Source: a virus
Lineage: Duplodnaviria; Heunggongvirae; Uroviricota; Caudoviricetes
Reading direction: 5' to 3' (one strand)
Virus record (IMG/VR): IMGVR_UViG_2703718771_000002
Length of the DNA stretch: 11,449 nucleotides
Positions 5,000-5,272 of this stretch are shown one piece after another; positions within the stretch are counted from its first letter, which is position 1; each line of letters opens with the position of its first letter. The position numbers and the translations under genes were made by a program. The notes under the pieces are model-generated. The model was not told the origin of the DNA. It made no database searches and saw only the letters and a list, made by a program, of their open reading frames with translations.

Positions 5000-5272
5000 A
5001 TGTCCAGAAAAACAGAATTTAAAGGCACCGCAGCTTCTCGCCGTAGAGCTCGTCGCGCAAACCTGCAAAGTCAGGAGGCGATTAGCTCCGACAAACTACA
5101 CAGGCCAACCCCATCACGAGTGGTCTTACAATGCAAACGCAAACCAGCAATGAGAGCAGAAGTAATAACACTGACAACGTTGACCAGAAAATATGAAGGC
5201 TCAACTTGTCTTCCAAATGTAGCTCTTTACGCGGCAGGCTACCATAAATCCAAACAACTGACAGCAAGATGA
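5000..5272 (+). CDS. N: N-like transcription antitermination protein (arginine-rich motif; P22 gp24-like C-terminus)
   Basis: ATG 5000 with SD GGGAGGAA. N-terminal arginine-rich motif TAASRRRARRANLQ. C-terminus LPNVALYAAGYHKSKQLTAR resembles P22 gene 24 protein (LLPGVALYAAGHRKSKQITAR) as recalled. The track's upstream start at 4928 has no SD and would put the ARM internal. Confidence 0.75.
   Translation: MSRKTEFKGTAASRRRARRANLQSQEAISSDKLHRPTPSRVVLQCKRKPAMRAEVITLTTLTRKYEGSTCLPNVALYAAGYHKSKQLTAR

What the first reader, a model, noticed from the sequence alone, without database searches (positions are those of the whole stretch)
5000..5272. N-like antiterminator with a P22 gene-24-type C-terminus
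The protein has a lambda-like arginine-rich motif near the N-terminus, but its last 20 residues resemble the C-terminus I recall for P22 gp24 rather than lambda N. Together with the lambda-type repressor C-terminal domain and a non-lambda helicase, the element looks like a mosaic of lambda and P22-type modules.
Basis: partly seen in the sequence, partly recalled or inferred. Interest (0 to 1): 0.35.

Follow-up and report, generated by a model that had tools for sequence, protein, structure and literature searches.

The report
Known Stx-phage N antiterminator gene

Summary
Window 5000-5272 (+) is an intact 90-aa ORF with a strong Shine-Dalgarno. It differs by one residue (R82H) from the annotated N of VT2-Sakai, Nil2 and many other Stx phages. 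The PL-nutL-N block occurs in 746 of 5426 complete E. coli genomes.

It is a full-length member of Pfam PF25694, the P22 gp24-type N family (E 2e-31). Tested in three segments:
- The arginine-rich motif resembles all reference N proteins, phi21 and 933W most closely.
- Residues 28-61 resemble only 933W N and lambda N, over lambda's NusA-binding stretch.
- Residues 62-90 resemble only 933W N and P22 gp24 (21/29 identical), not lambda or phi21.

A 128-nt DNA block (5205-5333) is 85-100% identical to a 933W-type phage and has sharp edges, so a real recombination junction lies inside N.

I also located the cognate nutL (4856-4901) and nutR (2252-2207, minus strand). Each has boxA, a covarying spacer hairpin, UACG, and a 5-bp boxB stem capped by a true GNRA tetraloop. 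Three terminator-like sites follow N.

Verdict: an ordinary, already known lambdoid N antiterminator. The mosaic reading is supported. The only mildly new detail is the tetraloop-type boxB.

The parts
4782..4810 (+). PL-like early-left promoter: TTGACC, 17-nt spacer, TACTAT
   Evidence: Consensus scan, 9 of 12 matches. It lies between the terminator of the repressor operon (4573-4594) and nutL. The promoter assignment rests on position and motif only.
4793..4808 (+). Operator-like site AAGTACATATCGTACT overlapping the PL spacer and -10 hexamer. A degenerate second copy lies at 4768-4783, and the same motif is at the PR side (2507-2522, minus strand).
   Evidence: Three matches to the pattern where 0.35 are expected; 0 of 200 shuffles reach three.
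4856..4870 (+). nutL boxA, GGCTCTTTAAACAAC
   Evidence: The GCTCTTT core is shared with the annotated boxA regions of P22 and lambda. It is conserved at the same position in 7 related phages.
4871..4883 (+). nutL spacer hairpin GTCGA-CTC-TCGAC between boxA and boxB
   Evidence: Folds at -3.5 kcal/mol. Across 15 nut sites the helix is 88% paired and 3 of 5 pairs show compensatory changes.
4884..4887 (+). UACG linker, nearly invariant (CACG in two relatives)
4888..4901 (+). nutL boxB: 5-bp stem UGGCU/AGCCA capped by a GAAA (GNRA) tetraloop
   Evidence: Folds at -6.3 kcal/mol. The helix is 100% paired in 15 nut sites and 4 of 5 pairs show compensatory changes; 0 of 500 shuffles reach the observed covariation. 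The loop is GAAA in 14 sites and GCAA in one.
4916..4986 (+). Structured N leader. A long-range helix (5' arm 4916-4934, 3' arm 4967-4986) closes a variable insert and ends 3 nt before the Shine-Dalgarno.
   Evidence: RNAalifold on 8 phage leaders predicts 19 pairs, 9 of them with compensatory changes. Single-sequence MFE folds agree.
4989..4995 (+). Shine-Dalgarno GGGAGGA for N
   Evidence: Read from the sequence. AGGAGG or GGAGA occupies the same place in all relatives.
5000..5272 (+). N antiterminator CDS, 90 aa plus stop
   Evidence: It is 89/90 identical to VT2-Sakai N.
5024..5080 (+). Codons 9-27: arginine-rich motif GTAASRRRARRANLQSQEA, the predicted boxB-binding helix
   Evidence: Significant similarity to the ARMs of 933W, phi21, P22 and lambda N. 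R14-R16 and R19 are invariant in the subfamily and R18 is nearly invariant.
5096..5161 (+). Codons 33-54: LHRPTPSRVVLQCKRKPAMRAE, a lambda-like central motif and the predicted NusA-binding segment
   Evidence: BLASTP against lambda N aligns window residues 11-61 with lambda residues 3-60. hhalign gives E 3e-4 and probability 40%. The Tatumella N (L018) bridges the two sequences. H34, P36, T37, S39, Q44, K46 and R47 are invariant in the subfamily.
5204..5269 (+). Codons 69-90: P22 gp24/H-19B-type C-terminal module TCLPNVALYAAGYHKSKQLTAR, the predicted RNA-polymerase-binding tail. It carries the rare R82H substitution at 5243-5245.
   Evidence: The RNAP-binding role is known for the C-terminal domain of H-19B N (PMC3526286; PMC8632103).
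5205..5333 (+). Mosaic DNA block shared with 933W-type phages (85-100% identity), bounded by unrelated sequence on both sides
5571..5602 (+). First intrinsic-terminator-like site downstream of N: 9-bp stem followed by TATTTTTGG
5719..5746 (+). Second terminator-like site: GCCCTC...GAGGGC followed by TTTTTTAT
5757..5786 (+). Third terminator-like site
2207..2252 (-). nutR, immediately after the cro stop codon: boxA 2252-2237 (CGCTCTTTGTAACAAC), spacer hairpin 2236-2225 (GGACattcGTCC), UACG 2224-2221, boxB 2220-2207 (UCGCU-GAAA-AGCGA)
   Evidence: The second boxB stem pair is C-G here and G-C in nutL.

Best explanation
The ORF encodes the N-type processive transcription antiterminator of a VT2-Sakai/Nil2-type lambdoid (Stx-phage-like) prophage.

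Shown here:
- The ORF is intact and has a strong ribosome-binding site.
- It belongs full length to the P22 gp24-type N family.
- It is the first gene after a repressor-controlled PL-like promoter.
- The phage carries exactly two cognate nut sites in the classical places, one in the N leader and one just after cro.
- Three terminator-like hairpins follow N on the same strand.

Inferred by homology:
1. After the repressor is lost, PL transcribes nutL and N.
2. The N-terminal arginine-rich helix (about residues 9-27) binds the boxB hairpin of the nascent RNA. Here boxB is a 5-bp stem with a genuine GNRA tetraloop, whereas lambda and P22 use pentaloops and phi21 a hexaloop.
3. NusB/S10 bind the near-consensus boxA.
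4. The central HRPT...KRKP motif, which is homologous to lambda N residues 34-49, contacts NusA.
5. The P22/H-19B-type C-terminal tail (residues 69-90) binds RNA polymerase.
6. The modified elongation complex then reads through the terminators downstream of N and, from nutR, those of the PR operon.

The long leader helix that brings nutL next to the Shine-Dalgarno probably allows lambda-like control of N translation (autorepression and/or RNase III processing). That step is inferred only.

The gene is an evolutionary mosaic: its 3' 66 nt plus the following intergenic region form a block exchanged among phages whose N genes are otherwise different.
For: - Family membership: Pfam PF25694 at E 2e-31, covering residues 1-90; PHROG 271 'anti-termination protein N-like' at E 2.5e-24.
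- Near identity to annotated genes: 98.9% identity to N of VT2-Sakai, Nil2, 2851, 1717, YYZ-2008 and others.
- Relatives: 40% full-length identity to the 127-aa 933W-type N (by my recollection H-19B N is of this type), and 40% to P22 gp24.
- Experimental support in a relative: in H-19B N, the ARM 12-RSRRRER-18 is needed for nut-dependent antitermination and the C-terminal domain interacts with RNAP (PMC3526286; PMC8632103).
- Module pattern: segment tests, BLASTP against lambda N, profile-profile comparison, and the bridging Tatumella sequence.
- nut sites: two per phage at conserved positions in 8 phages. The boxB helix is 100% paired with 4 of 5 pairs covarying, and the spacer helix has 3 of 5 pairs covarying.
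- Regulatory context: promoter and terminator-like sites and operator motif.
- Leader helix: covariation in 8 phages.
- Prevalence: at least 80% of the block is present in 746 of 5426 complete E. coli genomes.
Against: No functional data for this exact N/nut pair turned up in the searchable literature. The window allele has His at position 82, where every other sequence in the 19-protein alignment has Arg; this could weaken RNAP binding. The NusA contact rests on weak similarity (hhalign probability only 40%). Promoter and terminator calls are consensus matches only. phmmer found no PDB sequence match, so there is no direct structural template for this protein.
Confidence: 0.88

Rival explanations
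1. The gene is an N homologue but a hypomorphic or dead allele in a decaying prophage. The R82H change in the conserved C-terminal tail would impair RNA-polymerase binding, so the element no longer antiterminates efficiently.
For: Every other sequence in the 19-protein alignment has Arg at the column of position 82; only the window has His. Only 1 of 80 IMG/VR loci and two of the listed complete E. coli genomes match the block at 100%.
Against: The ORF, Shine-Dalgarno, nutL, nutR and PL are all intact and otherwise identical to functional Stx phages. His is a conservative replacement, and P22 gp24 has His at the neighbouring position. In H-19B N, deletions within the last 27 residues caused no more than a 1.5-fold defect on a single-terminator reporter (PMC3526286).
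Confidence: 0.08
2. The protein is a Nun-like exclusion factor: an ARM protein at the same map position that binds the nut RNA of other phages and arrests their transcription, rather than antiterminating its own.
For: It has an ARM, it is the first gene of the PL operon, and its boxB resembles lambda's (same CU-GAAA-AG top).
Against: BLASTP finds no alignment to Nun of mEp235 at E up to 100. The protein is homologous over its full length to the antiterminators P22 gp24 and the 933W-type N. The phage carries its own matching nut sites, whose boxB stems covary among relatives, and has terminators downstream that need read-through.
Confidence: 0.02
3. The real product is the 114-aa protein starting at ATG 4928, as annotated in the VT2-Sakai RefSeq record. 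The ARM would then not be N-terminal.
For: The reading frame is open from 4928, and NP_050520.1 is annotated that way.
Against: No Shine-Dalgarno precedes 4928, while GGGAGGA precedes 5000. Full-length relatives of the window, 933W and P22 types start at the M(S/T)R(K/R)T or MTV position and align from there. Position 4928 lies inside the 5' arm of a covarying leader helix. The Pfam match begins at residue 23 of the long form.
Confidence: 0.03
4. The C-terminal resemblance to P22 gp24 is chance or compositional, not homology.
For: The segment is short, about 24 residues. tblastn against the whole phage collection gives only E 2e-3 for P22 itself.
Against: None of 2000 shuffles reach the score. 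The motif recurs in 16 of the 19 aligned N proteins, including all those that reach PF25694's cutoff. DNA-level identity is 75-85% to P22 and 85-100% to 933W-type phages over the same block.
Confidence: 0.01

Closest known systems
N of Stx2 phage VT2-Sakai (NP_050520.1) and of Nil2, 2851, 1717, YYZ-2008 and Stx2a_WGPS phages
   Same: 89/90 residues are identical, and PL, nutL, the leader and nutR are identical. It is the same gene.
   Different: There is a single R82H substitution. The RefSeq record starts the CDS 24 codons too early. Downstream of about 5600 the window carries different early-left genes from VT2-Sakai; megablast joins cover only about 52-57% of the window.
N of H-19B / 933W (127 aa), studied experimentally by the Friedman and Sen laboratories
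   Same: About 40% identity over the full length. It has the same N-terminal MxRRTxFKG...RRR start, the same EAISSxxLHRPTxSR motif, and a near-identical C-terminal tail (20/25). The nut layout is also the same: hairpin, UACG, boxB.
   Different: The window protein lacks about 37 central residues. Its ARM C-terminal half differs (RRANLQSQ against RLKAKALA). The 933W-type boxB is the P22-type GACAA pentaloop and its nutL has no recognisable boxA, whereas the window has a GAAA tetraloop and a near-consensus boxA.
P22 gene 24 protein (founding member of Pfam PF25694)
   Same: Same Pfam family. The C-terminal 29 residues are 21/29 identical, and the ARM is homologous (9/19). Map position and function are the same.
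   Different: The central region is unrelated (1275 of 2000 shuffles score as well). P22 boxB is a GACAA pentaloop with a short unstructured spacer of about 9 nt after boxA.
Lambda N (Pfam PF11438 N36; NMR and cryo-EM structures exist)
   Same: The ARM core A-x-(S/T)-RRR-x-RRA-x-x-Q-x-Q is shared (9/15). The central NRPxxSL...RKPxxRxE stretch, which covers lambda's NusA-AR1-binding residues 34-47, is also shared. boxB has the same closing U-A pair and the same G-A-A-A loop start.
   Different: There is no PF11438 hit. Glu replaces Trp18. The C-terminus is unrelated. boxB is a tetraloop rather than a pentaloop with an extruded base. A structured 17-nt spacer separates boxA from boxB, against 8-9 nt in lambda.
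Phage 21 N
   Same: Among the four reference N proteins it has the highest ARM identity (12/17, KGTAxSRxxARRAxL).
   Different: The central and C-terminal parts are unrelated. phi21 boxB is a CUAACC hexaloop (PMC12550061).

Membership tests
P22 gp24-type N antiterminators (Pfam PF25694 N_peptide) | Profile match above the curated gathering score over the whole protein | tested here: met
   108.7 bits against a cutoff of 27.9, residues 1-90 on profile positions 5-100. P22 gp24 itself scores 149 bits.
P22 gp24-type N antiterminators (Pfam PF25694 N_peptide) | N-terminal arginine-rich motif | tested here: met
   Residues 13-19 are SRRRARR. R14-R16 and R19 are invariant in the subfamily and R18 is nearly invariant. 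The ARM is significantly similar to four reference ARMs.
P22 gp24-type N antiterminators (Pfam PF25694 N_peptide) | C-terminal motif LPxVALYAAG(Y/H)RKSKQ(L/I)TAR | tested here: met
   The window has LPNVALYAAGYHKSKQLTAR, 16/20 identical to P22. There is one deviation, R82H.
Lambdoid N/nut antitermination systems (functional class) | First gene of the early-left operon, next to the immunity region | tested here: met
   The gene order is O, cII, cro, then the divergently transcribed cI, orf173, PL, N.
Lambdoid N/nut antitermination systems (functional class) | Two cognate nut sites (boxA plus boxB hairpin), one in the N leader and one after cro | tested here: met
   nutL at 4856-4901 and nutR at 2252-2207. 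There are exactly two per phage in 8 phages, and the boxB stem covaries.
Lambdoid N/nut antitermination systems (functional class) | Terminators downstream whose read-through depends on N | tested here: inconclusive
   Three terminator-like hairpins lie at 5571-5786. Their dependence on N cannot be tested in silico.
Lambdoid N/nut antitermination systems (functional class) | N-dependent, Nus-factor-dependent antitermination activity | not testable with these tools
   This needs reporter or in vitro transcription assays. Activity has been shown for the 40%-identical H-19B N (PMC3526286).
Lambda N proper (Pfam PF11438 N36) | Match to the N36 profile, including Trp18 that stacks on the boxB loop | tested here: not met
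   PF11438 gives no hit at E up to 1, while lambda N scores 92 bits. In the alignment the Trp18 position is Glu26.
Lambda N proper (Pfam PF11438 N36) | Lambda/phi21-type C-terminus (WYSKPGERGITCSGRQK...IPLI) | tested here: not met
   No similarity: 414 of 2000 shuffles score as well.
Lambda N proper (Pfam PF11438 N36) | NusA-AR1-binding segment (lambda residues 34-47) | tested here: inconclusive
   A similar motif is present (5 of 2000 shuffles; hhalign E 3e-4, probability 40%; bridged by L018). Binding was not tested.
HK022 Nun-type transcription arrest factors | Sequence similarity to Nun | tested here: not met
   BLASTP finds no alignment at E up to 100 against Nun of mEp235.

The most novel reading that the evidence does not exclude
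This N subfamily would define a fourth, structurally uncharacterised N-boxB recognition mode. A Trp-less ARM would read a genuine GNRA tetraloop (GAAA or GCAA on a 5-bp stem with no extruded base). That hairpin is always preceded by a covarying spacer hairpin and an invariant UACG. In lambda the extruded loop base is thought to serve NusA recruitment, so a natural tetraloop boxB would imply a different way of engaging NusA, and it would be a natural test of that model. The same ARM/boxB type is found with either a P22-type or a lambda-type C-terminal tail, which would show that RNA recognition and RNAP engagement are freely exchangeable modules.
Probability: 0.3. Interest if true: 0.4.

Novelty: already known. 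Interest (0 to 1): 0.14.

Why it matters
The finding matters little as a discovery. The gene has been annotated as N in VT2-Sakai-type Stx phages for decades, it has a Pfam family, and intragenic mosaicism of lambdoid N genes is an established theme (for example the epsilon34 analysis, PMC2629481).

Three things are of modest use:
1. It corrects an over-extended start in the VT2-Sakai RefSeq record: 114 aa should be 90 aa.
2. It gives an explicit nutL/nutR model for a very common prophage type, present in about 14% of complete E. coli genomes, many of them Stx-converting. In these phages N-dependent read-through leads on to Q and toxin expression.
3. It offers a natural true-tetraloop boxB and a clean 2x2 set of ARM and C-terminus combinations that could be used to dissect which N module talks to which host partner.

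Tried and rejected
- **boxA-boxB alternative pairing.** The MFE fold of nutL pairs boxA (GGCUCUUU) with the 3' half of boxB (GAAAAGCC). nutL and nutR seemed to covary at the first boxA base. Relatives vary that base (A, G, C, U) without compensation, so I dropped the idea.
- **Local hairpin after boxB.** I first read a local CCAAAG...CUUUGG hairpin after boxB as a third nut hairpin. Folding and RNAalifold show these bases instead form the 5' arm of a long-range leader helix.
- **Rfam.** There is no family for nut sites or the leader. The only hit is an irrelevant sub-threshold RsmY match.
- **PDB sequence search.** No hit at E up to 10, which is unsurprising for a short disordered protein.
- **NCBIfam.** There is no model for N, even for lambda N or P22 gp24.
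- **IMG/VR scan.** It returned only near-identical copies (97-100%), useless for covariation. Diverged relatives had to be fetched one by one or from GTDB genomes.
- **Literature.** Seven full-text searches found no paper describing the nut sites or the activity of the VT2-Sakai-type N. The key H-19B nut paper (Neely and Friedman 2000) is not in the library, so my statement that a two-hairpin nut is already known for H-19B rests on the 933W-type sequence I read and on memory.
- **Structure prediction.** I did not run it. N proteins are intrinsically disordered (PMC8632103), and a model would not discriminate between the hypotheses.

Full report
**What is at the coordinates**

Window 5000-5272 (+) is an intact 90-codon ORF. 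GGGAGGA at 4989-4995 precedes it. Its product is MSRKTEFKGTAASRRRARRANLQSQEAISSDKLHRPTPSRVVLQCKRKPAMRAEVITLTTLTRKYEGSTCLPNVALYAAGYHKSKQLTAR.

The window is oriented so that the PR operon runs on the minus strand: cro 2263-2478, a cII-like gene 1825-2121, an O-like gene 823-1644, and a DnaB-type helicase that runs off the left end. The repressor gene and the PL operon are on the plus strand. The ORF is therefore the first gene downstream of a PL-like promoter (TTGACC-17-TACTAT, 4782-4810). That promoter overlaps an operator motif, AAGTACATATCGTACT, which recurs at PR.

**Identity**

- The protein hits Pfam PF25694, 'Transcriptional antitermination N peptide', over its whole length (E 2e-31, 108.7 bits against a cutoff of 27.9). 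It also hits PHROG 271, 'anti-termination protein N-like'.
- tblastn against 50,697 phage records gives 98.9% identity to the annotated N of VT2-Sakai, Nil2, 2851, 1717, YYZ-2008 and many other Stx phages.
- The single difference is R82H.
- The PL-nutL-N block is present at 80% coverage or more in 746 of 5426 complete E. coli genomes.
- The gene is therefore already known and very common.
- RefSeq annotates the VT2-Sakai copy as 114 aa from an upstream ATG (window 4928). That start has no Shine-Dalgarno, is not supported by the family alignment, and lies inside a covarying RNA helix.

**Checking the observation**

- Residues 11-25 match lambda N residues 3-17 at 9/15 positions.
- The last 20 residues match P22 gp24, translated from the P22 record, at 16/20 positions.

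I split the protein into three segments and scored each against 933W-type N, P22 gp24, lambda N and phi21 N, using 2000 shuffles per comparison.

| Segment | 933W N | P22 gp24 | lambda N | phi21 N |
|---|---|---|---|---|
| ARM, residues 1-27 | 11/18, significant | 9/19, significant | 9/15, significant | 12/17, significant |
| Central, residues 28-61 | 12/19, significant (0 of 2000) | not significant | 9/22 at lambda 28-49 (5 of 2000) | not significant |
| C-terminal, residues 62-90 | 20/25, significant | 21/29, significant | not significant | not significant |

- Pairwise BLASTP agrees. gp24 aligns over the full length (40% identity, E 3e-12). Lambda N aligns only through the ARM and central part (window residues 11-61 with lambda 3-60, E 4e-5). 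phi21 N aligns only through the ARM.
- Pfam places lambda N in another family, PF11438. Both lambda N and phi21 N fall below the PF25694 cutoff.

**The mosaic is real**

*DNA level.* Window 5205-5333 covers the last 22 codons of N plus the whole intergenic region, up to the start codon of the next gene. It is 85-100% identical to a 933W-type Stx phage, and the sequence on either side is unrelated. P22 shares the coding part of the block at 75-85% identity.

*Protein level.* The same modules occur in other combinations.
- A Tatumella terrea prophage N (L018) has the window-type N-terminus (59% identity over residues 1-39) and the same boxB type. Its remainder is lambda-like, including the lambda C-terminus WYSKPGERGITCTGRQK...IPLV (49% identity to lambda N).
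- Cronobacter and E. coli proteins P0055 and P0056 carry a phi21-type N-terminal two thirds (P0055: 70% identity over 64 residues) fused to the P22-type tail.
- Two alternative C-terminal modules are therefore shuffled against several ARM types. The Tatumella protein also serves as an intermediate that fixes the alignment of the window's HRPT...KRKP segment with lambda N's NRPILSLNRKPKSR. From published work, recalled from memory, that lambda stretch is the NusA-AR1-binding peptide (residues 34-47). The profile-profile comparison is only moderately supportive (E 3e-4, probability 40%).
- Intragenic mosaicism of N genes has been noted before, for example for epsilon34 (PMC2629481).

**Cognate RNA sites**

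I looked for the sites that N should act on. Both strands carry one copy of the same composite element in the classical positions.

| Site | Position | boxA | Spacer hairpin | Linker | boxB |
|---|---|---|---|---|---|
| nutL | 4856-4901 (+), in the N leader | GGCUCUUUAAACAAC | GUCGA-cuc-UCGAC | UACG | UGGCU-GAAA-AGCCA |
| nutR | 2252-2207 (-), right after the cro stop | CGCUCUUUGUAACAAC | GGAC-auuc-GUCC | UACG | UCGCU-GAAA-AGCGA |

- I fetched seven phages whose N is 49-82% identical, or related only through its N-terminus. In all of them a strict pattern finds exactly these two boxA-linked sites per phage.
- On an alignment of 15 nut sites, the boxB helix is paired in 100% of cells and 4 of its 5 pairs show compensatory double changes. 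The spacer helix is 88% paired and 3 of its 5 pairs covary. No shuffle out of 500 and no slid register comes close.
- The loop is GAAA in 14 sites and GCAA in one, which fits GNRA. The loop-closing pair changes from U-A to C-G in one relative, so the loop really is a tetraloop.
- The characterised boxB hairpins differ. Lambda has a GAAGA/GAAAA pentaloop, P22 a GACAA pentaloop, and phi21 a CUAACC hexaloop. Each mimics a GNRA fold while extruding or adding bases (PMC12550061; PMC12027372).
- Consistent with this, the window ARM has Glu where lambda N has the loop-stacking Trp18.
- The 933W-type nutL has the same hairpin-UACG-boxB layout. It differs in carrying a P22-identical boxB and no recognisable boxA.

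**Context that calls for antitermination**

- Three intrinsic-terminator-like hairpins lie within 520 nt downstream of N on the same strand, at 5571, 5719 and 5757. They precede the recombination and SSB genes.
- Between boxB and the Shine-Dalgarno, a long-range helix (4916-4934 with 4967-4986) closes a variable insert. RNAalifold on eight leaders predicts 19 pairs, 9 of them with compensatory changes.
- By analogy with the lambda N leader, recalled from memory, this helix probably brings N bound at nutL next to the ribosome-binding site and may be an RNase III substrate. This is inference only.

**Mechanism**

Shown here: family membership, gene position, two covarying nut sites, and the regulatory context.

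Inferred:
- The ARM helix binds the tetraloop boxB.
- NusB/S10 bind boxA.
- The central motif contacts NusA.
- The P22/H-19B-type tail binds RNA polymerase and renders it terminator-resistant.

The last step is supported experimentally for H-19B N, which by my recollection is of the 127-aa 933W type read here (40% identical, same tail). Its ARM mutants abolish nut-dependent antitermination. [quoted passage not shown]

**Rivals**

- *Nun-like arrest factor.* Excluded by the absence of any similarity to Nun and by the phage's own matching nut sites.
- *The 114-aa form.* Unlikely, for the reasons given under Identity.
- *Chance resemblance.* Excluded.
- *Weakened allele.* R82H might weaken the protein. 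This cannot be settled in silico. It looks minor, because deletions within the last 27 residues of H-19B N had only mild effects on a single terminator.

**Verdict**

The object is an ordinary, already annotated N antiterminator of a VT2-Sakai-type prophage. The only mildly new element I found is the explicit nut model, with a true GNRA-tetraloop boxB and a conserved spacer hairpin plus UACG. I found no description of it in the searchable literature, but that library lacks the key subscription-journal papers.

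Noticed in passing
window 5243-5245: Codon 82 of N is CAT (His), where every other sequence in the 19-protein N alignment has Arg. Only 1 of 80 IMG/VR loci (L021) and two of the listed complete E. coli genomes (strains 2013C-4974 and OkiPb01713) match the window's block at 100%.
   Followed up: partly
window 4840-5022 and 4928-5272: A 60-aa ORF and the 114-aa extended form of N (the form annotated in the VT2-Sakai RefSeq record) overlap nutL and the structured leader. Both look like annotation artefacts. The real start is 5000.
   Followed up: yes
window 4916-4934 with 4967-4986: A long-range leader helix closes a variable insert between nutL and the Shine-Dalgarno of N. 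RNAalifold predicts 19 pairs, 9 of them compensatory, across 8 phages including the 933W type. It may be the analogue of the RNase III and autoregulation stem of the lambda N leader.
   Followed up: partly
L018 4796-5324 (Tatumella terrea JCM 8887 prophage): This N protein has the window-type ARM and a tetraloop boxB (UGGCC-GAAA-GGCCA), but a lambda-type central region and C-terminus (49% identical to lambda N). It is a natural chimera, and it bridges the two families.
   Followed up: yes
P0055 (Cronobacter), P0056 and P0067 (E. coli); also phage records HK629, ECP1 and Lambda_2G7a: P0055, P0056 and P0067 have an N-terminal two thirds that aligns with phi21 N (P0055: 70% identity over 64 residues) and a C-terminus that is the P22 type. 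The three phage records match the window N only over residues 67-90, at 87-92% identity; their N-termini were not examined.
   Followed up: partly
L106 3297-3335 (Stx2a_F403, 933W-type): nutL of the 933W-type phage has the same hairpin-UACG-boxB layout. Its boxB, GCGCUGACAAAGCGC, is identical to P22 nutL boxB, and no GCUCUUU boxA is recognisable upstream.
   Followed up: partly
window 3750-4271 and 4573-4594: A 173-aa ORF of unknown function (PHROG 2602; weak sub-threshold Phage_int_SAM hits) sits between cI and PL, in the position of lambda rexAB. It is followed by its own intrinsic terminator and is likely a lysogen-expressed moron.
   Followed up: no
window 5331-5582: An 83-aa ORF of unknown function (PHROG 2471, E 8e-61) lies immediately after N. 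It starts exactly where the DNA block shared with 933W-type phages ends, and its 3' end overlaps the first terminator-like hairpin (5571-5592).
   Followed up: no
window 2589-3248: The C-terminal (dimerisation and cleavage) domain of the repressor is nearly identical to that of lambda cI, while the N-terminal HTH domain is different (overall 71% identity). This is another intragenic mosaic junction, giving a different immunity specificity.
   Followed up: partly
window 1849-1876 (+): A strong terminator-like hairpin (12-bp stem followed by TTCTTT) lies on the strand opposite the cII-like gene. Its position matches that of the oop antisense RNA terminator in lambda and P22.
   Followed up: no
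window 2256-2270: A perfect 6-bp hairpin, CCGCTT-aat-AAGCGG (read on the minus strand), spans the cro stop codon just upstream of nutR boxA. Its function is unknown.
   Followed up: no
window 5600-11449: Downstream of N the window departs from VT2-Sakai. Instead of gam/bet/exo it carries a 235-aa ORF (6335-7042), an SSB-like ORF (7043-7549) and other small ORFs. Megablast joins cover only about 52-57% of the window in any single phage record.
   Followed up: no
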